The position numbers and the translations under genes were made by a program. From a virus (Duplodnaviria; Heunggongvirae; Uroviricota; Caudoviricetes), in IMG/VR virus record IMGVR_UViG_3300028952_000022, positions 1 to 14,294 of that record: a stretch of DNA of 14,294 nt; one strand, written 5' to 3'. Below, piece after piece: positions 2,580-14,294 of this stretch (position 1 is its first letter; each line of letters starts with the position of its first letter). The notes under the pieces were generated by a model. It was given only the letters and a program-made list of their open reading frames with translations. It was not told the DNA's origin and did no database searches.

Positions 2580-2643
2580 AGTCACTGACCGGAACAGATA
2601 AACCTGTCCGTGGGCAGAAACCGATAAATCCTGATAAATATCC

Positions 2644-3177
2644 ATGAACACCAAAATCAAATACGGCCTGTCGGCTGCCGTTCTGGCGCTGATTGCCGCT
2701 GGTGCGCCTGCGCCTGACATTCTCGACCAGTTTCTGGATGAAAAGGAAGGTAACCACACCACGGCATACCGTGATGGCGCGGGTATCTGGACCATCTGCC
2801 GCGGTGCCATCCTGGTGGATGGCAAACCTGTCGTTCCTGGCATGAAGTTGTCGAAGGAAAAATGCGACCGGGTTAACGCCATTGAGCGTGATAAGGCGCT
2901 GGCATGGGTGGAGAAAAACATCAGAGTGCCATTGAGTGAACCCCAGAAAGCGGGGATCGCGTCATTCTGTCCGTACAACATTGGCCCCGGTAAGTGTTTT
3001 CCGTCGACGTTTTATAAACGAATTAATGCAGGTGATCGCAGGGGAGCGTGTGAGGCGATTCGCTGGTGGATTAAGGACGGTGGCAGGGACTGCCGTATTC
3101 GCTCAAATAACTGTTACGGTCAGGTATCCCGTCGTGACCAGGAGAGCGCGCTGGCGTGCTGGGGAATCGACAGATAA
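2644..3177 (+). CDS. R: SAR-type endolysin (phage lysozyme, 177 aa)
   Basis: N-terminal signal-anchor-release-like hydrophobic stretch 'YGLSAAVLALIAAGAPAP', then a lysozyme-like domain ('TAYRDGAGIWTICRG...'). Position is downstream of the holin and upstream of Rz/Rz1. Confidence 0.85.
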   Translation: MNTKIKYGLSAAVLALIAAGAPAPDILDQFLDEKEGNHTTAYRDGAGIWTICRGAILVDGKPVVPGMKLSKEKCDRVNAIERDKALAWVEKNIRVPLSEPQKAGIASFCPYNIGPGKCFPSTFYKRINAGDRRGACEAIRWWIKDGGRDCRIRSNNCYGQVSRRDQESALACWGIDR

Positions 3178-3266
3178 GCAGAATATTTTGCTAATAAATG
3201 ACGTTGGCCAAGGCGGATGGATAACACGAAATCCTGCGAACTGGCAAAATGTAAGTGAATAAAAGT

Positions 3267-3306
3267 AAAAACCCCGTTTGTTGGCAGCAAGCGGGGTTTT
3301 GTTTTT
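3267..3306 (+). terminator. Rho-independent terminator ~90 nt downstream of R
   Basis: aaaaaCCCCGTTTG-ttggcag-CAAGCGGGGtttt gttttt: 9-bp stem with one wobble, 7-nt loop, T-run 3297-3306. Confidence 0.6.
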
Positions 3307-3469
3307 ATGGCAGTAAGCTATGGGAGGCTGCCTTGATTGATTTTAGCAAACTGATTAGGGAGTTGCGACTCATGATTAGTCAATTACCAAACTGGAAATT
3401 TTTGCTGGTCTGGAGCATCCCTTTTTTATGGGTAGTATCCCAGTTAATTGTGGCAATTAAGGGGTAGCT

Positions 3470-3601
3470 ATGTCAGACAAACTCATAACGCCGGCAAAGG
3501 TCCTGTGTGTGATTGTCGGTATTTCATTTTCACTAATGCTGGTTGCTCTTTTTCTGTCCCTCGCCTGGGTGATGTTGTCTTCGTCGGGGCTGCTGGGGTG
3601 A
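3470..3601 (+). CDS. Hypothetical small membrane peptide (43 aa, single predicted TMD)
   Basis: ATG 3470 preceded by AAGGGG (3459-3464); translation 'MSDKLITPAKVLCVIVGISFSLMLVALFLSLAWVMLSSSGLLG*'. Below the ORF-track size cutoff, found by hand translation. Confidence 0.35.
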   Translation: MSDKLITPAKVLCVIVGISFSLMLVALFLSLAWVMLSSSGLLG

Positions 3602-3720
3602 CAGTGACTGATGACATCAGCAGAGCGCTGGCTTTTGCTATTAAGTGGGTGGCTGTTGGTATTGCTGTGTCTCCGATGCTGTATGGGCTGGCAAAACTGG
3701 TCATTGCGCTGAAATCGTGA
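3598..3720 (+). CDS. Hypothetical small hydrophobic peptide (~40 aa, possible GTG start), paralogous to the 3732-3818 ORF
   Basis: Frame of track ORF 3448-3720; C-terminal part 'DDISRALAFAIKWVAVGIAVSPMLYGLAKLVIALKS*'. Start codon uncertain (GTG 3598, GTG 3604 or later). Confidence 0.2.
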   Translation: MTVTDDISRALAFAIKWVAVGIAVSPMLYGLAKLVIALKS

Positions 3721-3731
3721 ACTTTAAAAAG

Positions 3732-3818
3732 ATGAGTGCTGAACTTATTCGGGCAATGGCATTTGCCATTCGTATTGTGGCCATTGCTGTTCTGGTCTGG
3801 GCAATCCGTTGGTGGTGA
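3732..3818 (+). CDS. Hypothetical small hydrophobic peptide (28 aa) immediately upstream of Rz
   Basis: ATG 3732 to TGA 3816-3818: '[28 protein letters not shown]'. Motif RA(L/M)AFAI(K/R)xVA is shared with the preceding ORF. Weak ribosome-binding site. Confidence 0.25.
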
Positions 3819-3819
3819 T

Positions 3820-4314
3820 ATGAACCGTGTTCTGTGTGTGGTGATTATTGTCCTGCTGGTAGCCTGTGGTGTGCTTAGTCTGGGGCTGAATCATTACCGC
3901 GATAACGCCATCACCTACAAAGCGCAGCGCGATAAAAAAGTCAGTGAGCTGAAACTGGCGAATGCCACTATTACTGACATGCAGCAGCGCCAGCGAGATG
4001 TCGCTGCGCTTGATGCCAGATACACGAAGGAATTAGCCGATGCGAGAGCTGAAAATGAAACTCTGCGCGCTGATGTTGCCGCTGGTCGTAAGCGCCTGCG
4101 GGTCAACGCCACCTGCCCCGGTACCGTGCGTGAAGCCACCGGCACCTCCAGCGTGGATAATGCAACCGGCCCCCGACTGGCAGACACCGCTGAACGGGAT
4201 TATTTCATCCTCAGAGAACGGTTGATGACAATGCAGAAGCAGCTGGAAGGGGCGCAGGAATATATCCGCACTCAGTGCACTAAGCTGGCTTTTTATTATC
4301 CGGAGGATACATGA
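3820..4314 (+). CDS. Rz: Inner-membrane spanin Rz (i-spanin)
   Basis: ATG 3820 with GGTGGTG upstream; '[75 protein letters not shown]...' is close to lambda Rz. N-terminal TMD plus coiled-coil periplasmic domain. Confidence 0.9.
4040..4225 (+). CDS. Rz1: Outer-membrane lipoprotein spanin Rz1 (o-spanin), embedded in the +1 frame of Rz
   Basis: '[61 protein letters not shown]': lipobox LVVSAC, proline-rich, very close to lambda Rz1. Confidence 0.85.
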
Positions 4315-4535
4315 AGAAATTACGGGTAACCGTAGAACCTTTTCAGGGAACAATTCCGTTCCGTATTTTGCAGCGTGGTCGTGTTCTTGTTGAAGGTTCG
4401 TTCAGTGGTAAATGTACGCAATTACACTCCCGGACCTTTCAGGTGAATGCCACGAATGAAGAGCTAACCGTGGAGTGTACGATGAATGCCGCTAAATGCC
4501 GCATGGTATCCGCTGCATTACAGCCAGTGTGTTGA
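4311..4535 (+). CDS. Hypothetical protein (74 aa); start overlaps the Rz stop (ATGA)
   Basis: ORF '[29 protein letters not shown]...'; translational-coupling-type overlap with Rz. No recognisable family. Confidence 0.3.
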
Positions 4536-4733
4536 GCGACCTTATTATCCATGCGCGGTATTGTCGCCGTATTCCTGCATTAACAGAGACCGCAGCCCGA
4601 CAGGGAGACTCCTCTGCGCGAGTGTGCGGGGATAATCAAAAACGATACACACCGGGGTTTACCGCGTTAACGGAGCGCGGCGTTGTCCCCTCATAGTCGC
4701 CTGTCCGGTGCGATGGTGGAAGAAACCGAACGT

Positions 4734-4934
4734 TCATTTCTCGTTATTTGTCATGCTGGCCGGGCGCAGATGCGTTGCATCTGTTGCCAGCCTTCTCCTG
4801 CAGGCTTCAATAACCCACGCTGAAAAGTTACCGGACCCTTTATGCTCAAGGGCGATGTTGATCTGTTCAATTATGTGATTGGGGAAACGGATATTGCGGG
4901 TTGTGGTTCTGCGGGTACGGTTTTTCGATGACAT
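4734..4934 (-). CDS. ylcI: YlcI/DUF3950-family small prophage protein (66 aa)
   Basis: Internal Met start (ATG at 4934 on the minus strand) with AAGGAA 6 nt upstream; 'MSSKNRTRRTTTRNIRFPNHIIEQINIALEHKGSGNFSAWVIEACRRRL...' matches the YlcI-type protein found next to terminase genes in E. coli cryptic prophages such as DLP12 (from memory). Confidence 0.65.
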   Translation of the reverse strand: MSSKNRTRRTTTRNIRFPNHIIEQINIALEHKGSGNFSAWVIEACRRRLATDATHLRPASMTNNEK

Positions 4935-4975
4935 ATTTATTTCCTTTACTGATTGCCATATGACGGGGATTTTAC

Positions 4976-5341
4976 ATGGCTGAGCTTCGTACACTCCAGA
5001 GCAGAATCAAAACACTGAATACCCGACGGGTGAATATTCTGAAGGGTGAACAGCGTCGTGTCAGTGGCAGTGCACGTGTTTCCCTCAAGCGTCATATCTG
5101 GCTCAGGGACGCCGGGCAGTGCCGTCTCTGTGGTCGTGTGGTTGACCTCTGTGACAGTGAACTCGATCACCGAATTGCACTTCAGTTCGGTGGTGGTAAT
5201 GAGGAGACGAATCTCTGGACGCTCTGTACCGAATGCCATCGACAAAAGTCTGCTCGTGAAGCGGCGAGTGGTATGCCGGACCCGACGCTGCCGGAGGTGT
5301 CCGGAGGTAGTGGCAGAGAGGACGACATCATCGGACTGTAA
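4976..5341 (+). CDS. HNH endonuclease (packaging-associated)
   Basis: HNH motif 'DHRIALQFGG...NLWTLCTECHRQKS' with a Cys pair 'CRLCG'. Position directly upstream of TerS is typical of HK97-like cos phages. Confidence 0.85.
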   Translation: MAELRTLQSRIKTLNTRRVNILKGEQRRVSGSARVSLKRHIWLRDAGQCRLCGRVVDLCDSELDHRIALQFGGGNEETNLWTLCTECHRQKSAREAASGMPDPTLPEVSGGSGREDDIIGL

Positions 5342-5430
5342 CCCAACCCGGGGGGGGTATCATCCGGCGTAAAAAACGATCGCTTTGGACACCGCGCCCC
5401 CTCTCACGCAGAGAAAAAATTCCCGTTTCA

Positions 5431-5559
5431 GGGCAGTTAACATGTTAACTGGCTGCCCGGGCATTTTTGCGGTTTTTATCTTTATTATTCAGTTTGTTGT
5501 GCGGAAAAAATGTTAACAGGCTTTTTCAGCAAATGTTAACCAGGCAGCAGTTAACATTT
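5431..5559. promoter_or_regulatory. cos-region-like array of ATGTTAAC / GTTAACAT inverted repeats (candidate terminase or accessory-factor binding sites)
   Basis: Palindrome GGGCAG-TTAACATGTTAA-CTGGCTGCCC at 5431-5458; AATGTTAAC at 5508-5516; perfect 10-bp inverted repeat AAATGTTAAC-n9-GTTAACATTT at 5531-5559. Located between the HNH and TerS genes. Confidence 0.4.
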
Positions 5560-5631
5560 GCGGCATGAGACGCCGGGAAAAATGGGCTGAACCATACCCG
5601 GCTGAGTGCGTTCTGGACCCGGGAGGAGGCT

Positions 5632-6195
5632 GTGCTGACAACGCAAAAACGAAAATTTGCGCTGGCGCTCATGTCCGGGAAAAACAAAACAGCGTCAGCC
5701 ATTGCCGCCGGTTATTCGGCGAAGACCGCCAGGGTTAAAGGCTCGCAGCTGGCAAAAGATCCTGAGGTGCTTGCGTTTATAGCCCGTAAACAATGCGAGA
5801 CGGTGGAGGTGGATGAGGTTCCTGTTTACCGGCAGAAAAAATCAGAGCAGGAGGATAAACCCCGTCGCCGTGAGGCGGCTGCAATACCACAGCCGGACGA
5901 AAACAATCTGGAGATGCCACCGTCCGCGGTGATGTCTCCTGGTATTGAATATATGGAGGATGGTCTTCCCGATCCGGTGAAAGCCATGGGGCGGATCCTG
6001 GTGGAAAACCTCTGCATTGATCCGAAACTGGCACTGGATGCGGCCTGGCGTCTGGCGCAGTTCACGCACCATAAAAAAGGGGATACCGGGAAAAAATCGG
6101 CAAAAGGTGATGCCGCGAAAAAAGCGGCTAACCGTTTTGCGGTGCCACCGCCCCCCCGACTGGTGGTGAATAACGATAATGAGGGCAACGGATGA
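5632..6195 (+). CDS. Terminase small subunit (P27-family type), GTG start
   Basis: GTG 5632 preceded by GGGAGGAGG; N-terminal 'QKRKFALALMSGKNKTASAIAAGYSAKTARVKGSQLAKDPEV' is an HTH-like TerS signature; stop overlaps the TerL start (ATGA at 6192-6195). Confidence 0.8.
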   Translation: MLTTQKRKFALALMSGKNKTASAIAAGYSAKTARVKGSQLAKDPEVLAFIARKQCETVEVDEVPVYRQKKSEQEDKPRRREAAAIPQPDENNLEMPPSAVMSPGIEYMEDGLPDPVKAMGRILVENLCIDPKLALDAAWRLAQFTHHKKGDTGKKSAKGDAAKKAANRFAVPPPPRLVVNNDNEGNG

Positions 6196-7853
6196 TACCT
6201 GTATGGAGCACAGCCTGCCCGGACTGGGCAGAGCGCCTGAAAAAGGGGCTGTCGATTATTCCGGATCCGATTTATCCGGACGAGGCCGCACATGCCCTGG
6301 CGATTTTTAAACAACTGCGGATTGTGGATGCACCTGGTAGCCCTACGTTCGGGGAGTCCTGTGCACCGTGGGTGTTTGACCTGGTGGCGGCCCTGTTTGG
6401 CTCCTACGATGCGCAGACCGGTGTACGCCATATCAAGGAAGTTTTTATCCTTATCCCCAAGAAAAACTCGAAGTCCACGCTGGCCGCGGGGATCATGATG
6501 ACTGCACTGTTACTGAACTGGCGGCAGGCGGCGGGTTACACGATTCTGGCCCCGACTGTGGAGGTGGCGGCCAACGCCTTCAACCCTGCCCGGGATATGG
6601 TACGACGTGACGATGATCTGGATGACCTCTGCCAGGTACAGACCCATATCCGGACCATCACCCACCGAGTGACGGACACCACCCTGAAGGTGGTGGCAGC
6701 CGATCCGAATACGGTGTCCGGTATCAAGTCCGTGGGTACGCTGATTGATGAGTTGTGGCTGTTTGGCAAGCAGTGCAAGGCGGAGGACATGTTACGTGAA
6801 GCCATAGGCGGCCTTGCCTCCCGCCCGGAAGGGTTTGTGGTGTATACGACCACCCAGTCGAATGAACCGCCCGCCGGGGTGTTCAGACAGAAACTGCAGT
6901 ACGCCCGGGATGTGCGCGACGGCAAAATTCATGATCCGCACTTTCTGCCGGTGATATTTGAACACCCTCCTGAAATGGTGGAAAGCGGGGCTAACCTGCT
7001 GATGGAAAACCTCGCCATGGTCAATCCGAATCTCGGCTATTCAGTGGATGAGGCCTTTCTGTACCGGGAGTACCGTAAAGCCCGGGAAGCCGGTGAAGAG
7101 ACATTCCGGGGGTTCATGTCAAAACACGCCAATGTGGAAATTGGTCTTGCCCTGCGCTCTGACCGCTGGGCGGGGGCTGATTTCTGGGAAGAGCAGGGCC
7201 GTTGTATCAGCCTGGACGATATCCTGCGTCGTGCTGATGTGGTGACGGTGGGGATTGACGGCGGAGGGCTGGATGATCTGCTGGGGATGTATGTGATTGG
7301 GCGTGACCGGGAGACCCGCGAATGGCTGGGCTGGGGCCATGCCTGGGCGCATGAAACCGCGGTGGTCCGACGGAAGAGCGAGGCGTCCCGGTTTCAGGAT
7401 CTTGTTGCCTGTGGAGATATGACCATTGTCCGGCGTGTCGGGGATGACACGGCGGAAGTGGCGGAATATGTGCGTCGCATTCATGAGGCTGAGTTACTGG
7501 ACCATATCGGTATTGACCCGTCAGGGGTGGGGCAGATTCTGGATTCACTGGCGGAAGCCGGGATCCCCGACGGAATTGTGGTGGGGATAAGCCAGGGCTG
7601 GAAACTGGGCGGGGCCATTAAAACCACCGAGCGCAAACTGGCTGAAGGGGTGCTGGTGCATGGTGACCAGCCCCTGATGGCCTGGTGTGTCGGCAATGCC
7701 CGGGTGGAGCCTAAAGGTAACGCCATTCTTATCACCAAACAGGCCAGTGGACGGGGAAAAATTGACCCGCTGATGGCGCTGTTCAATGCGGTCTCCCTGA
7801 TGTCCCTTAACCCGGAACCGAAAAAGAAAGAATATGCGGTTTTTTTCATATAA
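6192..7853 (+). CDS. Terminase large subunit (553 aa)
   Basis: Large ORF translationally coupled to TerS. The track translation includes a Walker-A-like segment 'ILIPKKNSKST' and acidic nuclease-domain residues; size and position are typical of Terminase_1-type TerL. Confidence 0.85.
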   Translation: MIPVWSTACPDWAERLKKGLSIIPDPIYPDEAAHALAIFKQLRIVDAPGSPTFGESCAPWVFDLVAALFGSYDAQTGVRHIKEVFILIPKKNSKSTLAAGIMMTALLLNWRQAAGYTILAPTVEVAANAFNPARDMVRRDDDLDDLCQVQTHIRTITHRVTDTTLKVVAADPNTVSGIKSVGTLIDELWLFGKQCKAEDMLREAIGGLASRPEGFVVYTTTQSNEPPAGVFRQKLQYARDVRDGKIHDPHFLPVIFEHPPEMVESGANLLMENLAMVNPNLGYSVDEAFLYREYRKAREAGEETFRGFMSKHANVEIGLALRSDRWAGADFWEEQGRCISLDDILRRADVVTVGIDGGGLDDLLGMYVIGRDRETREWLGWGHAWAHETAVVRRKSEASRFQDLVACGDMTIVRRVGDDTAEVAEYVRRIHEAELLDHIGIDPSGVGQILDSLAEAGIPDGIVVGISQGWKLGGAIKTTERKLAEGVLVHGDQPLMAWCVGNARVEPKGNAILITKQASGRGKIDPLMALFNAVSLMSLNPEPKKKEYAVFFI

Positions 7854-7876
7854 CCCTGTTCACACTGTAACCATCA

Positions 7877-7900
7877 CGAACCGCTCCGGCGGTTTTTTTA
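7877..7900 (+). terminator. Rho-independent terminator candidate after TerL
   Basis: AACCGC-tccg-GCGGTT stem-loop followed by TTTTTATTTT. Confidence 0.45.
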
Positions 7901-7916
7901 TTTTCAGGAGGCTGAT

Positions 7917-8486
7917 GTGACTCTTAAACGGGCCTGTTCCCTGCTGACGGTGAAATCCTTCAGTGAGGATGAACGGGTGATCACCGGGATTGCGTCAACG
8001 CCTTCTCCGGATCGGGATGGTGACATCCTGGAGCCGGAGGGCGCGGAGTTTGGCAGTGCGATCCCGTTTCTCTGGCAGCATGACCATTCCCGCCCGGTGG
8101 GGCAGTGTACGGTGCGCCGGGTCAGCGAAGGGCTGGAAATCACGGCAACACTGGTGAAGCCCGTACCGGATATGCCGTCGCAACTGGCTGCCCGGCTGGA
8201 TGAGGTCTGGGCGGCCATTAAGACCGGGCTGGTCAGGGGGCTGTCCGTGGGCTTCCGTCCCCATGAATACACCTTTCTGGACGGAGGCGGACTGCATTTT
8301 CTGCGCTGGGAACTGATGGAGGTGTCTGCCGTCACCGTGCCCGCGAATGCGGAATGCACCATCCGGACCATTAAATCTTACGACCGCCCGTTTTCTGCCG
8401 CGTCCGGCAACCGGAAACCGGTGGTGAAAATCGCATCTTCTGACCGGAACGCCAACAACACCAACTGCGCGACAGGGAACGAATAA
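7917..8486 (+). CDS. HK97-family prohead protease (peptidase S78/U35), GTG start
   Basis: CAGGAGG RBS 6 nt upstream of GTG 7917; motifs 'FLWQHD' and 'GLSVGF' typical of HK97 gp4-like proteases. The C-terminal ~30 aa ('[30 protein letters not shown]') may be junction-derived. Confidence 0.75.
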   Translation: MTLKRACSLLTVKSFSEDERVITGIASTPSPDRDGDILEPEGAEFGSAIPFLWQHDHSRPVGQCTVRRVSEGLEITATLVKPVPDMPSQLAARLDEVWAAIKTGLVRGLSVGFRPHEYTFLDGGGLHFLRWELMEVSAVTVPANAECTIRTIKSYDRPFSAASGNRKPVVKIASSDRNANNTNCATGNE

Positions 8487-9747
8487 TACCCAAATCGCAA
8501 GCACGGCTTATGTTATGGCTGCGATCGCTGCCCTCGTGGACTCGTCGCCTGACGCACTGAATACGCTGAACGAGCTGGCTGCGGCGTTGGGCAACGACCC
8601 GAATTTTGCGACCACCATGACTAGCGCGCTTGCGGGTAAGCAACCGAAAGATGCCACCCTGACGGCGCTGGCCGGGCTTGCTACTGCGGCAGACAGGTTT
8701 CCGTATTTTACGGGGAATGATGTTGCCAGTCTGGCAACCCTGACAAAAGTTGGGCGGGATATTCTTGCGAAATCGACCGTTGCCGCCGTTATCGAATACC
8801 TCGGTTTACGAGAACTCGGCACAAGCGGGGAGAAAATACCGTTACTCAGTACAGCGAATACCTGGACTAATCGACAAACATTCAGCGGTGGCCTTTCTGG
8901 TGAACTATCCGGCAATGCTTCTACAGCTGCAAAATTAAAAACTGCCAGGAAAATAAGCAATGTGGCTTTTGATGGTTCCTCCGATATCACATTAAAAGCA
9001 AGTCATGTTGGTGCGTTTGCCTTAGGGAAAACAGGAAGCACCGTTGCGAATGATAAAGCAGTTGGATGGAACTGGAGTAGCGGAGCCTATAACGCAACTA
9101 TTAGTGGTGCATCAACGTTAATTATTCATTTTTATATGGGAGAAGGAAGTTGTCCTGCAGCTCAGTTTCGGATTAATTATAAAAATGGCGGTATTTTTTA
9201 TCGTTCAGCCCGTGATGGTTATGGTTTTGAAGCCGACTGGTCCGAATTTTACACCACCACCAGAAAGCCTTCAGCAGGAGATGTTGGTGCACTGCCGTTA
9301 TCTGGTGGTCAACTGAATGGTGCACTGGGTATCGGAACATCCAGTGCTCTTGGCGGTAATTCGATTGTATTGGGTGATAATGACACGGGCTTTAAACAAA
9401 ATGGCGATGGTAATCTGGATGTTTATGCTAATAACGTCCATGTTATGCGCTTTGTCTCCGGAAGCATTCAAAGTAATAAAACCATAAATATTACAGGGCG
9501 TGTTAACCCCTCGGATTACGGTAACTTTGATTCCCGTTATGTGAAAGATGTTCGACTTGGTTCACAGCAATATTATGGAGTGAACAACTGGCAAACATGG
9601 AATTTCCAGTGCCCTTCAGGTCATGTATTGTCTGGTATTAATGTTCAGGATACAGGGTCTAACTCTGCCGATAATATAGCGGGCGTTTATTACAGACCCG
9701 TTCAAAAGTATATAAATGGCACCTGGTATAATGTAGCGAGCGTTTAA
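8428..9747 (+). CDS. stf: Side tail-fibre protein, 5'-truncated (constant part Sc fused to variable part Sv); first ATG at 8515
   Basis: Frame is open from 8428; '[25 protein letters not shown]' is the conserved mid-fibre motif of lambda Stf / Mu S / P2 H type fibres, which normally lies several hundred residues into the protein. The C-terminal end '[19 protein letters not shown]' is a typical fibre tip. No N-terminal fibre domain is present. Confidence 0.8.
8789..8814 (+). repeat. Left crossover site of the invertible segment (gix/pix-like)
   Basis: TTATCGAATACCTCGGTTTACGAGAA lies inside the tail-fibre ORF; it matches the reverse complement of the right site (11870-11895) at 21 of 26 positions. 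Confidence 0.7.
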
Positions 9748-9748
9748 T

Positions 9749-10282
9749 ATGATGCACTTAAAGAACATAAAAGCGGGTAATGCTAAAACACTGGAACAGT
9801 ATGAGTTAACAAAGAAACACGGAGTTATCTGGCTTTACTCTGAGGACGGAAAAAACTGGTATGAGGAAGTGAAAAACTTTCAGCCAGACACCATAAAGAT
9901 TGTTTACGATGAAAATAATATTATTGTTGCCATAACCAAAGATGCCTCCACACTTAACCCTGAAGGTTATAGCGTCGTTGAGATTCCTGATATTACCGCC
10001 AACCGGCGTGCTGACGACTCAGGTAAATGGATGTTTAAAGATGGCGCAGTCATTAAACGTGTATATACCGAAGAAGAGTTGCGCCTACAGACGGAAAACC
10101 AGAAAAAAATATTATTACAGCAGGCCAGAGAAAAAACGCAGTTCTGGCAAACACAGCTTACTTTGGGGATTATCACTGATTCAGACAGACAGCAACTGAT
10201 GAACTGGATGCGATACGTGCAACAGGTTGAGACAACTGATACCTCGGTTCTTCCTGTAACATTCCCGGAACCACCAGAATAA
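9749..10282 (+). CDS. tfa: Tail fibre assembly protein (Tfa) for the currently expressed fibre tip
   Basis: '[41 protein letters not shown]...ITANRRAD...' is Tfa/gpU-like; it starts 2 nt after the fibre stop. Confidence 0.85.
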
Positions 10283-10283
10283 G

Positions 10284-10310
10284 AAAAGGCCCGTACGGGC
10301 CTTAATTTGT
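10284..10310. terminator. Bidirectional terminator between the convergent tfa genes
   Basis: Perfect palindrome AAGGCCCGTACGGGCCTT (10286-10303), with T-rich sequence on both strands after the hairpin. Confidence 0.6.
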
Positions 10311-10312
10311 TG

Positions 10313-10840
10313 TTATTCTGGTTTCTGTGGCCATTCAGGCTTTGCAGTATCCACACGGCTGACCATAACGCTGTAGCGTTCCCATGATTCCAGTCGTGTG
10401 CGTTCCTCATCAGTTGCCATATTCAGTCTGACAGCACGTTCCAGCGGTTGAATCACAGACTCCGCTTCGGAAAGCAAAGCGGCTTTTTGTAACTCTGCCT
10501 GCTGTTGCAGTTCCTGTTTTGTATATTCCCGCTTTACTACTTTACCATCCAGAAACTTCCAGTTTCCCGAGATATCGGCGCGACGGTTGGCTGTTATATT
10601 CGGTAACTCAACAACACTTAACCCGTCAGGGTTAAGTGTTGATACGTCTTTCTCAATACAACGAATAATCCCCTTCTGGTCATAAGCTATTTTTAAAGTA
10701 TCATCCTGAAAGTTTTTTAATTCGTCATACCAGTTTTTACCGTCTTCTGTATATAGCCAGATAACGCCAGCTTTTTTCGTAAGCTGATACTGCTCAATGG
10801 TTTTGGGGTTTCCGGCGGTAATATTTTTCAGATGTTGCAT
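10313..10840 (-). CDS. tfa: Tail fibre assembly protein, alternative copy (Tfa') in the inverted arm
   Basis: '[41 protein letters not shown]...[13 protein letters not shown]...' is paralogous to the plus-strand Tfa; AGGAGA RBS upstream on the minus strand. Confidence 0.85.
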
Positions 10841-10855
10841 ATATTCTCCTGATGG

Positions 10856-11887
10856 CTATGCCTGTTCAACGTTATACCAGTTACCAGAAATGTATTTTTG
10901 TAGTGGTCGTGACACCATCCAGTCATCTCCATCAACCTCACCAATAATTTGCAATCCTGTTGTCACATGACCATTACCTGGTTCGCAAAGTCCTCCGCGA
11001 TATAATGTGTCAGAACGTCTGCCTCCCAGACGCACATTTCTGATAAAAGAACTATTCAGGTAATCATTTAAGTTTGACCCCCAGCACCCACCAAATATAT
11101 TTCCATCGGTGTTATAACGGACGCCACCCGCAATAAGAGCACCCGGTGAAATAAAGGATTTATCGTTCGGGTTAAACTGCCATAAAGCATCATTACCGCC
11201 ATCGCCACGCATATGAATACATGGAACCGGAAATCCATACTGTTCTGTCAGTAAATACCCAAAGCTGACCGCGCCGGGATAGCCCTGTCCATTGCGAATG
11301 GACAAGCCCTTAACTATCGGCACGTAATGACCACCAGGAGTGGGATTCCAGGCAAACTGCGTCTGAACAAAAGGCGCGGTGGCATTATTCAACTGGTCTG
11401 CAAATGCGCCACTTCCATCAGGAATTATTCCCTGATGAATATATGCAACCCGCTTATAAAAATCAGCAGATGCGGGTTGAAGCCCAAATGCCAGTTGTCC
11501 ATTTGAATAGAATAAAAGGACACCGTCGCCGCCCTGTTTAATACCAGTGTCGTTATCTCCGAGAGTAATGGAATTACCGCCCAGTGCGTTATCTGTACCA
11601 AGCGCCAGCCCACCATCAATTTTGGCCCCGTGGCTGACAGATATAGCACCTGTTCTCAGATTTATAGCGAATGGCCTTAATGGGCCGATATCACCGTTTT
11701 CGCCTTGTCCTTCAGCCGTCGGAATGAAATGAAGAAAATCTTCTGAACGACGGAAAATAAGACCGAAGGCATCATTGAAAATTCGCAGCGCATTCACCGT
11801 GCCAATTTTCAGTTCTCCGGTCATTTTATCGCCGGAACGCTGAACGGCGTTACCAGCCTTGTTTACCGTTTCCTGTAAACCGAGGTT
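10856..11887 (-). CDS. Alternative tail-fibre C-terminal variable segment (Sv'), silent in this orientation (no upstream Sc on this strand)
   Basis: Minus-strand frame is open from 11887 (just inside the right crossover site) to the stop at 10856; fibre-tip sequence '...GNSITLGDNDTGIKQGGDG...QKYISGNWYNVEQA' parallels the plus-strand Sv ('[19 protein letters not shown]...[14 protein letters not shown]'). Confidence 0.75.
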   Translation of the reverse strand, partial: NLGLQETVNKAGNAVQRSGDKMTGELKIGTVNALRIFNDAFGLIFRRSEDFLHFIPTAEGQGENGDIGPLRPFAINLRTGAISVSHGAKIDGGLALGTDNALGGNSITLGDNDTGIKQGGDGVLLFYSNGQLAFGLQPASADFYKRVAYIHQGIIPDGSGAFADQLNNATAPFVQTQFAWNPTPGGHYVPIVKGLSIRNGQGYPGAVSFGYLLTEQYGFPVPCIHMRGDGGNDALWQFNPNDKSFISPGALIAGGVRYNTDGNIFGGCWGSNLNDYLNSSFIRNVRLGGRRSDTLYRGGLCEPGNGHVTTGLQIIGEVDGDDWMVSRPLQKYISGNWYNVEQA

Positions 11888-11895
11888 TTAGATAA
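11870..11895 (+). repeat. Right crossover site of the invertible segment (gix-like)
   Basis: Plus strand TTCCTGTAAACCGAGGTTTTAGATAA; its reverse complement TTATCTAAAACCTCGGTTTACAGGAA is, from memory, within 1 nt of the phage Mu gix site. Confidence 0.75.
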
Positions 11896-11949
11896 TGGCG
11901 GTTTCTGGCCTGCATGGCATGATTTGTGCTTTTGGACGGGAGATTCAGC

Positions 11950-12190
11950 GTGCTGATTGGCTATGTAAGGGTATCAACAAATGACCAGAATACAGATCTG
12001 CAACGAAACGCTCTTGTTTGTGCAGGATATGAACAAATATTTGAAGATAAATTAAGCGGAACAAGGACAGGCCGACCTGGATTAAAACGTGCTTTAAAGC
12101 GCCTTCAAAAAGGTGACGCACTGGTTGTCTGAAAACTGGACTGACTGGTTCACTGTATGCGGCATCTTGTCGTGCTGGTGGTGGAAGCCT
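11950..12190 (+). pseudogene. pin: Pin/Gin/Hin-family serine DNA invertase, truncated (N-terminal ~61 aa intact, then in-frame stops and decay)
   Basis: GTG 11950: 'MLIGYVRVSTNDQNTDLQRNALVCAGYEQIFEDKLSGTRTGRPGLKRALKRLQKGDALVV*'. This matches the Pin/Gin N-terminus including the catalytic Ser in 'VSTNDQ', but TGA stops replace the expected W/R codons ('VV*KLD*L...'); the resolvase core and the C-terminal HTH are absent. Confidence 0.8.
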
Positions 12191-12192
12191 AG

Positions 12193-12325
12193 AAAAAGTA
12201 TCGGGTGTTACTGAACCGTGTTGATACATCAACTGCACCTGATATTGAGTGGCCTACGAACCCTGTCAGGGAGTAATCATTGGGATTATGCCGCAGCACG
12301 TCTTAAGCAAGAACGTGCTGCGGTT
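12193..12325 (+). repeat. Direct repeat copy 1: tfa 3'-end fragment ('...[25 protein letters not shown]') plus an 11-bp-stem hairpin (12291-12323)
   Basis: ~130 bp, near-identical to 13245-13378; hairpin CCGCAGCACGT-n11-ACGTGCTGCGG. Confidence 0.7.
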
Positions 12326-12330
12326 GGATG

Positions 12331-12999
12331 CTATTTTTTCCCTGAAGCGGAAAACATTACTACAGTACCTTGAACCTTGGTTTTAACATTCTCGAAATGC
12401 TCTGAGAGTATATGTGTTAAGCCTTCTTCGGAATCTTTTGTGTTTGAAAAGATGCCTTTCTGATTGTAAATGCGCATCAGTTTTTGACCGAAGCTATTGT
12501 GCACAACTCCATCGCCAAGAATTGTGGCTCCGTATAGAGTTCCATCGTCAGTTAAGGCCTGCGCCGCATTGCGTATTACACAGCTTTTTGTAGATATATT
12601 TCCAGGCAGGCAGTGAAGAAGGTAAAACATGGAAATGGAATCAAATTGACCATGTAACGCCGCGGGATAAGGTTCAAAAACATCATGGCTAATTTTATGT
12701 TTAATTTTTGATTCCCCAGCCCTTGTAGATGCCGCGTTCAGGCTAGCTTCGTTCAAATCCATTAAAGATATCAGACTACTCTCAGGTACGTGAGTAAGGT
12801 AAAACCCAGTTCCAACACCAATATCCAGATGGTTGTTACCTACATGTTCCAGAAAGTGTGGAAGAAGGTGTTCCTTTGTAGGACATCCCCATGCAAGCCG
12901 ATTTGATACTCCCAAAACCCACCAGTCATAAAGCTTTAGGGTAAGTGGTGTGTAAATTTTAGCCCCATCATCTGTGTTTTTTTTCATTGATTTCACCAT
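12331..12999 (-). CDS. Class I SAM-dependent methyltransferase (Rossmann fold), substrate unknown; probable true start at ATG 12987 (GGTGA RBS)
   Basis: Motif I 'LDIGVGTGFY' (GxGxG), acidic post-beta2 'LMDLN'; no DPPY/NPPF-type DNA-MTase motif IV seen. Visibly AT-rich relative to neighbouring phage genes. Confidence 0.65.
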   Translation of the reverse strand: MVKSMKKNTDDGAKIYTPLTLKLYDWWVLGVSNRLAWGCPTKEHLLPHFLEHVGNNHLDIGVGTGFYLTHVPESSLISLMDLNEASLNAASTRAGESKIKHKISHDVFEPYPAALHGQFDSISMFYLLHCLPGNISTKSCVIRNAAQALTDDGTLYGATILGDGVVHNSFGQKLMRIYNQKGIFSNTKDSEEGLTHILSEHFENVKTKVQGTVVMFSASGKK

Positions 13000-13055
13000 G
13001 TTATAGTTTTATTTGTGAATTAAATCAATTATGGCGATGAATTACAAGGGGTTAA

Positions 13056-13325
13056 ATGCTGCCGCAGCATAGCGATATTGAAATAGCCTGGTATGCTTCG
13101 ATACAGCAGGAGCCGAATGGCTGGAAGACCGTCACCACACAGTTCTACATCCAGGAATTCAGTGAGTATATTGCGCCACTGCAGGATGCTGTAGATCTGG
13201 AAATCGCAACGGAGGAAGAAAGATCGTTGCTGGAGGCATGGAATAAATATCGGGTATTGTTGAATCGTGTTGATACATCAACTGCACCTGATATTGAGTG
13301 GCCTGCAAATCCTGTCAGGGAGTAA
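13056..13325 (+). CDS. Truncated/chimeric tail fibre assembly protein fragment (89 aa)
   Basis: C-terminal ~50 aa '[53 protein letters not shown]' matches the conserved Tfa C-terminus; the N-terminal 35 aa are unrelated to the Tfa N-domain. AAGGGG RBS before the ATG. Confidence 0.45.
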
Positions 13326-13378
13326 TCATTGGGATTATGCCGCAGACACGTCGTATGCAGGAACGTGCTGCGGTTAGT
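13245..13378 (+). repeat. Direct repeat copy 2 (tfa 3' end plus imperfect hairpin)
   Basis: Near-identical to 12193-12325; includes an identical 39-bp core 'cgtgttgatacatcaactgcacctgatattgagtggcct'. Confidence 0.7.
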
Positions 13379-13439
13379 TTGTGAGCTTTCGATAGTGGTT
13401 GTTATTTTTGCCCTTATTTGTTCCGGAGGCCATGGTTCA

Positions 13440-13610
13440 ATGGTCCGTCTGCCCCCTGTGGTGATGTCAGCAAAATCAGCCACTGCGCGAACCACAATAG
13501 CCCGGGAAGATGCTGAAGATCACCAGGTAAAGCTGTCAGCGCAGAAACTGGAAGAACTGCTCGCATCAATGGTTAAGGATGAGGTTGATCGCAATGATGG
13601 GATTTATTGA
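13440..13610 (+). CDS. Hypothetical small protein (56 aa)
   Basis: ATG 13440 with GGAGG 10 nt upstream: 'MVRLPPVVMSAKSATARTTIAREDAEDHQVKLSAQKLEELLASMVKDEVDRNDGIY*'. The annotated track start at 13329 lies inside the repeat hairpin and is unlikely. Confidence 0.3.
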   Translation: MVRLPPVVMSAKSATARTTIAREDAEDHQVKLSAQKLEELLASMVKDEVDRNDGIY

Positions 13611-13706
13611 CGTCAGCGAGAGCAGAAGGAAGAACTGAATAACCTGAATGATTTACGCTCAATCAGAGCGATGGCGATTAGCGGCAATCACGCTCGATAA
13701 AATTAA

Positions 13707-13729
13707 CCCCGGTGATCATCCGGGGTTTT
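13707..13729. terminator. Terminator hairpin, probably bidirectional, between the convergent small ORF and the Rha gene
   Basis: CCCCGG-tgatcat-CCGGGG followed by TTTT on the plus strand; on the minus strand the Rha gene stop (13737-13739) lies 8 nt upstream. Confidence 0.55.
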
Positions 13730-13736
13730 GCATTCA

Positions 13737-14294
13737 TTAAAATCGCATCAACCTTTCCACCAATTGTTCTTTACGGGCAACGATCCACCCATGTTGCTCC
13801 AGATAAAATTTAAACCGTTCCAGCGTGCATACCATCGCATCGGCGGGGACTTTTTCTGTGAACTCGACCTGACCGTGTTTATCGAAGTGGATCAGTAATG
13901 CGCATCCATTATTTGGGGCGGGGGAGTTTTGTGCTGCAGGAGGACGTTTGTGGAGTTCTTCTTCCATTGCGTTAAATTTTTCAATGTAAGCTTCTTTTAG
14001 TCTGGCTGCTTTTTTGCCAGTAAATCCCATTACGAGGAACATGAAGCCGTCTTTTGTGATCAGGTAGCATCGTGATTCACGTTCTGCGCCGTTGCCAATT
14101 TCGACAGTCTGAACATCGGCCGAAAAGTTGGCTGATGTAAATTCGGGAGAGCAGTCGAGTGTGTCAATCTTAGCTAAAACGTGTTTATGTTGTTTATCGA
14201 AGTAGTCGGCAACAGCTTGAGAGGTGGTAACCAGGCGACCATCTTTGAAAAAGACTTTTGGTGACTCGTTAGAAAAAGTTATAGCTGTATTCAT
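13737..14294 (-). CDS. Phage regulatory protein, Rha family (185 aa); start codon at the window edge
   Basis: 'VTTSQAVADYFDKQHKHVLAKIDTL...TKDGFMFLVMGFTGKKAARLKEAYIEKFNAMEEEL' is the Rha N-terminal domain signature; ATG is the reverse complement of 14292-14294. Confidence 0.7.
   Translation of the reverse strand: MNTAITFSNESPKVFFKDGRLVTTSQAVADYFDKQHKHVLAKIDTLDCSPEFTSANFSADVQTVEIGNGAERESRCYLITKDGFMFLVMGFTGKKAARLKEAYIEKFNAMEEELHKRPPAAQNSPAPNNGCALLIHFDKHGQVEFTEKVPADAMVCTLERFKFYLEQHGWIVARKEQLVERLMRF

What the first reader, a model, noticed from the sequence alone, without database searches (positions are those of the whole stretch)
7854..8520. Head module collapse: TerL is followed directly by the prohead protease, which reads straight into mid-tail-fibre sequence
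HK97-like modules normally run TerL, portal, protease, major capsid, head-tail joining, tail, fibres. Here no portal ORF separates TerL (ends 7853) from the protease (7917-8486). The protease 3' end overlaps a frame (open from 8428) that already encodes the conserved mid-fibre motif '[16 protein letters not shown]', which normally lies several hundred residues into the fibre protein. This implies at least one large deletion that removed capsid, tail and the fibre N-terminus, and possibly a second that removed the portal, leaving a defective prophage that cannot form particles by itself. The deletion breakpoint should lie between about 8390 and 8515.
Basis: inference. Interest (0 to 1): 0.5.

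Follow-up and report, generated by a model that had tools for sequence, protein, structure and literature searches.

The report
Deletion scar in a decaying prophage
This is the junction of one ~19-kb deletion that removed the capsid, portal and whole tail from an E. coli lambdoid prophage, which is ordinary prophage decay; the missing portal between terminase and protease is normal for this phage lineage.

Summary
TerL ends at 7853, an S78 prohead-protease ORF runs 7917-8486, and a frame open from 8428 encodes mid-fibre sequence. Comparison with intact prophages at the same ompW/trp site shows one internal deletion, 18,962 bp relative to an IS-free relative. The left side is codons 1-175 of a 645-aa protease::major-capsid fusion gene. 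The right side is codons 507-941 of a 941-aa side tail fibre. The two are out of frame. The deletion removed the capsid domain, portal, connectors, all tail genes, J, Lom and the fibre N-terminus. The suggested second deletion of the portal is wrong. In this lineage (Stx-phage/Pankowvirus type, and a distant Burkholderia phage) the native order is TerS, TerL, protease(::)capsid, small ORF, portal. The junction occurs in 1 of 5,426 complete E. coli genomes, where RefSeq annotation already marks both genes as pseudogenes. The exact chimeric ORF is on 70 public contigs, so it is inherited and not an assembly artefact. This is routine prophage decay of low interest.

The parts
5632..6195 (+). Terminase small subunit gene, intact
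   Evidence: Pfam Terminase_2. RefSeq annotates the same protein, WP_000958366.1, in relatives.
6192..7853 (+). Terminase large subunit gene, intact, 553 aa
   Evidence: Pfam TerL_ATPase and TerL_nuclease. 100% identical to TUM10008 over this stretch.
7878..7895 (+). Terminator-like hairpin followed by a T-run in the native TerL/protease::MCP spacer; not created by the deletion
   Evidence: The spacer lies within the stretch that aligns to intact relatives (window 4724-8447 at 99.9% to the O121 prophage and 6192-8809 at 100% to TUM10008).
7917..8442 (+). Remnant of the protease::major-capsid fusion gene: codons 1-175 of 645 plus 1 nt. The S78 protease domain is retained; the linker/scaffold region and the HK97-fold capsid domain are lost.
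   Evidence: 175/175 identity to the N-terminus of the 645-aa protein of JJ1886. The intact protein has Peptidase_S78 at 48-152 and Phage_capsid at 386-635.
8440..8442 (.). Deletion junction: CTG, present in both parental sequences (3-bp microhomology)
   Evidence: Three-way alignment of the window with the left and right parental sequences of JJ1886.
7917..8486 (+). Chimeric 189-aa ORF: 175 native protease residues followed by 14 residues ([14 protein letters not shown]) read out of frame from fibre DNA, then TAA
   Evidence: The exact protein is on 70 public contigs, e.g. KZO73662.1 'hypothetical protein'.
8440..9747 (+). Remnant of the side tail fibre gene: codons 507-941 of 941. The first in-frame ATG, at 8515, corresponds to codon 532. 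The PF08400 N-terminal tail-attachment domain is lost.
   Evidence: 436/438 identity to residues 504-941 of the JJ1886 fibre. The intact fibre has phage_tail_N at 1-134. The remnant hits gp37_C.
8783..8814 (.). Left gix-like inverted repeat inside the fibre gene; boundary of the invertible segment
   Evidence: The segment 8783-11901 is inverted in TUM10008, L008 and L011.
9749..10282 (+). Tail fibre assembly chaperone, 177 aa, paired with the currently expressed fibre C-terminus
   Evidence: Pfam Caudo_TAP.
10313..11824 (-). Alternative tail fibre assembly gene (10313-10840, 175 aa) and alternative fibre C-terminal cassette (10856-11824, 322 aa) in the silent orientation
   Evidence: Caudo_TAP hit for the 175-aa ORF; no Pfam hit for the 322-aa ORF. 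Layout as in JJ1886.
11870..11901 (.). Right gix-like inverted repeat
11926..12132 (+). Stub of a serine invertase gene (N-terminal ~60 residues only)
   Evidence: Pfam Resolvase N-terminal domain, profile positions 2-69 of 145. RefSeq annotation calls it an incomplete recombinase in TUM10008, O121 and JJ1886.

Best explanation
The feature is the scar of one internal deletion in a lambdoid, Stx-phage-type (Pankowvirus-like) prophage integrated next to ompW, upstream of yciE/trp, in E. coli. The ancestral late operon ran TerS, TerL, protease::MCP fusion (645 aa), a small ORF, portal, head-tail connectors, tail genes, J, Lom, side tail fibre (941 aa), then an invertible fibre C-terminus/chaperone cassette. 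An illegitimate, homology-independent recombination event joined nucleotide 526 of the fusion gene to codon 507 of the fibre gene at a shared CTG. It removed about 19 kb. The joint is out of frame. The protease reading frame therefore runs 14 codons into fibre DNA and stops at 8486. The fibre frame is open only from 8428, has no start until an internal Met at 8515, and I see no Shine-Dalgarno-like motif upstream of that ATG. Shown: the parental sequences, the breakpoint, the genes lost, and the native TerL-protease adjacency. Inferred: the mechanism (microhomology-mediated end joining or replication slippage) and the consequence. The expected consequence is an element that may still excise, replicate, cut cos and lyse, but cannot make heads or tails by itself.
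For: Left flank: window 4724-8447 is 99.9% identical to the O121 prophage and 2591-8447 is 99.1% identical to the JJ1886 prophage, ending inside the 'phage major capsid protein' gene. Right flank: window 8440-14294 is 99.97% identical to JJ1886, starting inside the 941-aa fibre gene of the same prophage. The three-way alignment gives uninterrupted left identity to 8442 and right identity from 8440, so the overlap is CTG. The deleted length is 18,962 bp in O121 coordinates. At protein level the match is 175/175 to fusion residues 1-175 and 436/438 to fibre residues 504-941. The intervening genes in O121 are the rest of the fusion gene, a hypothetical ORF, portal, connector, head closure, gp10-like, gp17, major tail, chaperones, tape measure, minor tail genes, J and Lom. 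The same flanking chromosomal genes (ompW remnant, yciE, yciF, trpA) are present in TUM10008, O121 and L008-L010. RefSeq annotation independently marks both remnants as partial pseudogenes in TUM10008. The exact junction 81-mer is in five further independent contigs, and the exact chimeric protein is on 70 contigs. The native TerL-protease/MCP-portal order is seen.
Against: Three bases of microhomology are only weakly above chance (about 5% of random joints by my own geometric estimate), so the molecular mechanism is not established. No expression or induction data exist. I did not show that the carrier genomes lack a compatible head/tail module elsewhere. I only found that TUM10008 has no second near-identical copy of the 301-nt junction region.
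Confidence: 0.93

Rival explanations
1. One reading: one deletion removed the portal between TerL and the protease, and a second removed capsid, tail and fibre N-terminus.
For: The canonical HK97 order (TerL, portal, protease, MCP; established knowledge) would predict a portal gene at 7854-7916.
Against: The 63-nt TerL/protease spacer lies within the stretch that aligns to intact relatives at 99.9-100% identity. In those relatives the portal (861 aa, PF04860) lies downstream of the capsid gene. The same order is found in Stx2a phage WGPS8 and in the distantly related Burkholderia phage vB_SBP33.
Confidence: 0.02
2. Assembly artefact: a collapse or chimeric join between two prophage regions during assembly.
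For: E. coli genomes carry several near-identical lambdoid prophages (median 2 places per genome), which is a classic cause of mis-assembly.
Against: The identical junction is present in a complete genome (TUM10008). It is also in five independently assembled contigs from different samples, with differing SNPs, segment orientation and upstream modules. The chimeric protein is on 70 contigs.
Confidence: 0.01
3. A functional, selected reduced element: a satellite-like or helper-dependent prophage that keeps int/xis, replication, lysis, HNH-TerS-TerL and a receptor-binding fibre cassette, and is mobilised in capsids of a co-resident phage of the same type.
For: The rest of the prophage in TUM10008 appears complete (int, xis, regulators, replication, Q, lysis, terminase). 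The allele persists across many samples and has since undergone segment inversion and exchange of its early region. Defective Sakai prophages lacking head genes are packaged through complementation by other prophages (PMC2669165).
Against: Nothing beyond a single out-of-frame deletion distinguishes it from the intact prophage. It has no capsid-redirecting or helper-sensing genes, and both junction genes are broken. It is rare (1 of 5,426 complete genomes). TUM10008 has no second close copy of the junction region.
Confidence: 0.05

Closest known systems
Intact lambdoid prophages at the ompW site of E. coli ST131 (JJ1886, NC_022648.1) and O121 (NZ_CP119441.1)
   Same: 99-100% nucleotide identity on both sides of the junction. 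They share the integration site, TerS/TerL, the protease domain, the fibre C-terminus, the invertible cassette, the methyltransferase and Rha.
   Different: They retain the roughly 19 kb between fusion-gene nucleotide 526 and fibre codon 507. JJ1886 additionally carries ISEcp1-blaCTX-M-15 and ISEc12 insertions within that stretch.
Long-tailed Stx-converting phages of genus Pankowvirus (e.g. Stx2a_WGPS8, NC_049944.1) and Escherichia phage JLK-2012
   Same: They have the same head-module layout: HNH, TerS, TerL, 645-aa protease::MCP fusion (97.7-99.8% identity), small ORF, portal. Asadulghani et al. note that Sakai Sp6, Sp9, Sp10 and Sp12 have a head region organised differently from lambda (PMC2669165). 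Linking that remark to this particular layout is my inference.
   Different: The window keeps only the first 175 codons of the fusion gene and no portal, connector or tail genes.
HK97 head module (TerL, portal gp3, protease gp4, MCP gp5)
   Same: S78-family prohead protease, HK97-fold capsid protein, HNH-associated terminase.
   Different: The gene order differs: here the protease/MCP precede the portal and are fused into one gene.
Cryptic prophages of E. coli with remnant invertible fibre cassettes (e.g. e14 with pin/stfE/tfaE; comparison from my own knowledge, not tested here)
   Same: Truncated fibre genes and paired tfa chaperones flanked by gix/pix-like inverted repeats in a prophage that cannot form particles.
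   Different: Here the invertase is itself a 68-aa stub, and the deletion is recent enough that both flanks are about 100% identical to intact relatives.

Membership tests
Peptidase S78 (HK97 gp4-type prohead serine protease) | Sequence match to the family profile above the curated threshold | tested here: met
   PF04586, 38.0 bits against a cut-off of 21, residues 48-152 matching profile positions 51-155 of 165.
Peptidase S78 (HK97 gp4-type prohead serine protease) | Catalytic His and Ser present | tested here: inconclusive
   By eye, WQHDHSRPVG (His54/His56) and GLSVGF (Ser110) are retained upstream of the breakpoint. The assignment rests on my recollection of the HK97 gp4 motifs. No solved homologue was found by sequence.
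Peptidase S78 (HK97 gp4-type prohead serine protease) | Delivered into a prohead, here by covalent fusion to the scaffold/MCP part | tested here: not met
   Residues 176-645 (linker plus Phage_capsid domain) are deleted. No capsid gene remains in the element.
Pankowvirus-type lambdoid late module (HNH, TerS, TerL, protease::MCP, portal, tail, J, Stf) | Gene order and near-identity with complete members | tested here: met
   99-100% nucleotide identity to complete members on both flanks. The order was confirmed in four complete relatives.
Pankowvirus-type lambdoid late module (HNH, TerS, TerL, protease::MCP, portal, tail, J, Stf) | Complete set of morphogenesis genes | tested here: not met
   18,962 bp carrying the MCP domain, the portal, connectors, tail genes, J, Lom and the fibre N-terminus are absent.
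Defective (cryptic) prophage produced by internal deletion | Both flanks collinear with a single intact prophage at the same attachment site, with essential genes missing between them | tested here: met
Defective (cryptic) prophage produced by internal deletion | Fails to yield particles on induction | not testable with these tools
   Requires induction of a carrier strain.
Phage satellites (PICI / cf-PICI / P4-like) | Own conserved architecture with helper-exploiting genes (capsid-size redirection, helper-induced derepression), distinct from the helper genome | tested here: not met
   The element is the helper-type prophage minus one deletion. No extra genes lie at the junction.
Gin/Pin/Cin/Hin-type invertible tail-fibre segment | Inverted crossover sites flanking two alternative fibre C-termini with their chaperones; both orientations found in nature | tested here: met
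   Inverted repeats at 8783-8814 and 11870-11901 (the gix reference sequence is from memory). The orientation is flipped in TUM10008, L008 and L011 relative to the window, JJ1886, L009 and L010.
Gin/Pin/Cin/Hin-type invertible tail-fibre segment | Adjacent functional serine invertase | tested here: not met
   Only a 68-aa ORF covering profile positions 2-69 of 145 of the Resolvase N-terminal domain. It is annotated as incomplete in the relatives.

The most novel reading that the evidence does not exclude
The deletion derivative is not just debris. It would be a persisting, helper-dependent mobile element: it keeps integrase, replication, lysis, HNH-terminase and cos, and is packaged in trans into capsids of a co-resident phage with the same head module. 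The retained invertible fibre C-terminal cassette would serve as a recombination reservoir for host-range switching.
Probability: 0.06. Interest if true: 0.4.

Novelty: already known. Interest (0 to 1): 0.1.

Why it matters
It matters little beyond annotation. It shows that the HK97 gene order cannot be assumed for every HK97-fold head module. In this widespread E. coli/Stx-phage lineage a protease::capsid fusion gene follows TerL and the portal comes afterwards, so the absence of a portal after TerL is not evidence of decay. The precisely mapped junction (CTG at 8440-8442) is a clean lineage marker for a sub-population of E. coli carrying this grounded ompW prophage. It is also one more documented example of microhomology-associated deletion as a route of prophage domestication.

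Tried and rejected
1. I first took BLAST's end points (left flank to 8447, right flank from 8440) as an 8-bp microhomology. Base-by-base alignment showed that the left match beyond 8442 needs a 1-nt gap (CTG-CCGG against CTGACCGG), so the exact microhomology is 3 bp.
2. IS-mediated deletion was rejected. No IS sequence or IS end lies at the junction. The IS elements in JJ1886 lie inside the deleted interval and are absent from the O121 relative.
3. Invertase-mediated deletion was rejected. The right breakpoint is 343 nt upstream of the gix-like site, and the left breakpoint has no such site.
4. Exact-junction scans of JGI metagenomes, IMG/VR and the GTDB representative genomes found nothing. 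The allele was found only through the exact-protein index.
5. A search of the Protein Data Bank with the 175-residue protease remnant gave no hit, so the catalytic residues could not be checked against a structure.
6. An Rfam scan of the window found nothing.

Full report
**1. The observation**

The window is the late (right-hand) half of a lambdoid prophage. On the + strand it encodes:
- a SASA-family esterase (1-1857)
- a lysozyme (2644-3177)
- an Rz spanin (3736-4314)
- an HNH endonuclease (4976-5341)
- TerS (5632-6195)
- TerL (6192-7853)
- a 189-aa ORF with a Peptidase_S78 prohead-protease domain (7917-8486)
- a 410-aa ORF with a gp37_C fibre domain (8515-9747)
- a tail-fibre assembly chaperone (9749-10282)

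On the - strand there is a second chaperone, a second fibre C-terminal cassette and a methyltransferase.

The frame of the fibre ORF is open from 8428 and encodes ...[35 protein letters not shown].... No portal ORF lies between TerL and the protease ORF. The 63-nt spacer holds only a terminator-like hairpin.

**2. What it is**

*Flanks.* A megablast of 6000-10400 against 5,426 complete E. coli genomes found no genome covering 80% of the query. Hundreds of genomes match up to window 8447, where the annotated genes are terminase small subunit, terminase large subunit and phage major capsid protein. A 301-nt query across the suspected junction (8300-8600) was covered in full by only one genome, TUM10008. 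There RefSeq annotation calls the two genes 'HK97 family phage prohead protease, incomplete, missing C-terminus' and 'phage tail protein, incomplete, missing N-terminus'. All other genomes match only from 8440 onward, inside a 'prophage tail fiber N-terminal domain-containing protein' gene.

*Intact relatives.* The intact relatives at the same chromosomal site are O121 strain 201805972 and ST131 JJ1886. In both, the prophage lies next to an ompW remnant and just upstream of the trp operon (yciE/yciF/yciG also intervene in O121). They have this order:
- HNH, TerS, TerL
- a 645-aa 'major capsid protein'
- a 73-aa ORF
- an 861-aa portal
- head-tail connector, head closure, gp10-like and gp17
- major tail, tail chaperones and tape measure
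- minor tail proteins, J and Lom
- a 941-aa side tail fibre
- the chaperone/invertible cassette

The 645-aa protein is a fusion, with Peptidase_S78 at residues 48-152 and Phage_capsid at 386-635.

*Breakpoint.* Base-by-base alignment of the window with the two parental sites in JJ1886 shows uninterrupted identity with the fusion gene up to 8442 and with the fibre gene from 8440. The joint is therefore a shared CTG. BLAST's apparent 8-bp overlap needed a 1-nt gap.

In O121 genome coordinates the deleted stretch is 18,962 bp. It is longer in ST131 relatives only because they carry IS and ISEcp1-blaCTX-M-15 insertions within it.

At protein level the 189-aa ORF is 175/175 identical to fusion residues 1-175, followed by 14 out-of-frame residues. 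The open fibre frame is 436/438 identical to fibre residues 504-941, and the Met at 8515 is internal residue 532. The protease frame (7917, phase 0) and the fibre frame (8440, phase 1) differ, so no fusion protein is made.

**3. The portal question**

It does not apply here. The spacer and the protease start lie within the stretch that aligns to the intact relatives at 99.9-100% identity. In those relatives the portal follows the capsid gene.

The same order is present in Stx2-converting phage Stx2a_WGPS8 (genus Pankowvirus), whose fusion protein is 97.7% identical. It is also present in Burkholderia phage vB_SBP33, which is 39% identical and has the protease and capsid as separate adjacent genes. 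In the phage collection, 116 records hold at least 80% of the fusion protein.

Asadulghani et al. noted that Sakai prophages Sp6, Sp9, Sp10 and Sp12 have a head region organised differently from lambda (PMC2669165). Linking that remark to this layout is my inference. There was one deletion, not two.

**4. Is it real and how common**

The exact 81-nt junction is present in TUM10008 and in five further independently assembled contigs, four from ENA assemblies and one from an NCBI assembly. These differ from the window in three ways:
- scattered SNPs
- the orientation of the invertible fibre segment
- in one case (L011), the early-region module

The exact 189-aa chimeric protein is recorded on 70 contigs, for example KZO73662.1, 'hypothetical protein'.

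Exact-junction scans of JGI metagenomes, IMG/VR and the GTDB species representatives were negative. The junction is therefore a genuine, inherited, lineage-restricted allele and not an assembly artefact.

**5. How it most likely arose and what it does**

*Shown:* the parental sequences, the breakpoint, the 3-bp microhomology, the absence of IS or gix sequences at the joint, and the list of genes lost.

*Inferred, mechanism:* a RecA-independent illegitimate recombination event, either microhomology-associated end joining or replication slippage. Three bases of microhomology are expected in only about 5% of random joints by my own estimate. That is suggestive but not proof.

*Inferred, consequence:* in TUM10008 the rest of the prophage still carries int, xis, exo, regulators, replication genes, Q, lysis genes, HNH and terminase. 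The element may therefore still excise, replicate and lyse, but it cannot build heads or tails.
- The 175-residue protease remnant keeps the domain, but it has lost both its substrate and its means of entering a prohead.
- The fibre remnant lacks the PF08400 N-terminal domain. I see no Shine-Dalgarno-like motif in the 20 nt upstream of the ATG at 8515 (sequence). I therefore judge it to be at best a recombination reservoir.

**6. Comparison with what is known, and novelty**

This is standard prophage decay. The automatic RefSeq annotation of TUM10008 already labels both remnants as pseudogenes.

The only corrective point of general use is this: in this common E. coli/Stx-phage head module a protease::capsid fusion natively follows TerL. 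Lack of a portal at that position is therefore not a sign of deletion.

The most novel reading I cannot exclude is that the element is mobilised in trans by a co-resident phage with the same head module, as shown for other defective prophages in O157 Sakai (PMC2669165). Nothing in the sequence points to adaptation for that.

**7. Verdict**

- Observation: confirmed.
- Interpretation: partly supported. One large deletion and the breakpoint interval are correct. The portal deletion is wrong, and the 'protease gene' is really the N-terminal domain of a fusion gene.
- Interest: low, 0.1.

Noticed in passing
window 8783-11901 (inverted repeats 8783-8814 and 11870-11901); invertase stub 11926-12132: A Gin/Pin-type invertible fibre segment carries two alternative fibre C-termini with their chaperones. 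It is in opposite orientations among carriers of the same deletion (the window, L009 and L010 against TUM10008, L008 and L011). Yet the adjacent invertase is only a 68-aa N-terminal stub in all relatives examined. Inversion must therefore be catalysed in trans by another invertase, or it predates the loss of the invertase.
   Followed up: partly
window 7878-7895: A terminator-like GC hairpin followed by a T-run lies between TerL and the protease::MCP gene. It falls within the stretch that aligns to intact relatives at 99.9-100% identity, so it is a native feature of the late operon, presumably read through under Q antitermination.
   Followed up: no
window 12179-12325 and 13228-13375: Two 148-bp direct repeats, 88.5% identical, derive from tail-fibre-assembly gene fragments. 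They flank a SAM-dependent methyltransferase gene (12331-12999, - strand). This region holds several tfa remnants (e.g. 13056-13325), suggesting repeated cassette exchange or cargo insertion.
   Followed up: no
L011 1-3400 (NCBI GCA_022551135.1) compared with window and L008: The same deletion junction is linked to a different early/regulatory module (PerC, LexA-like, RusA, KilA-N, DUF968, Q). This indicates mosaic recombination with another lambdoid prophage after the deletion occurred.
   Followed up: no
L004 15325-18097 (JJ1886): In the ST131 relative the tape-measure gene of this prophage is interrupted by ISEcp1-blaCTX-M-15, and lom is interrupted by ISEc12. This is a different, independent route to inactivation of the same prophage.
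   Followed up: no
window 4976-5341: An HNH endonuclease gene lies about 290 nt upstream of TerS. This is the HK97-type arrangement in which HNH assists terminase cos cleavage (from my own knowledge). It remains intact in the defective element.
   Followed up: no
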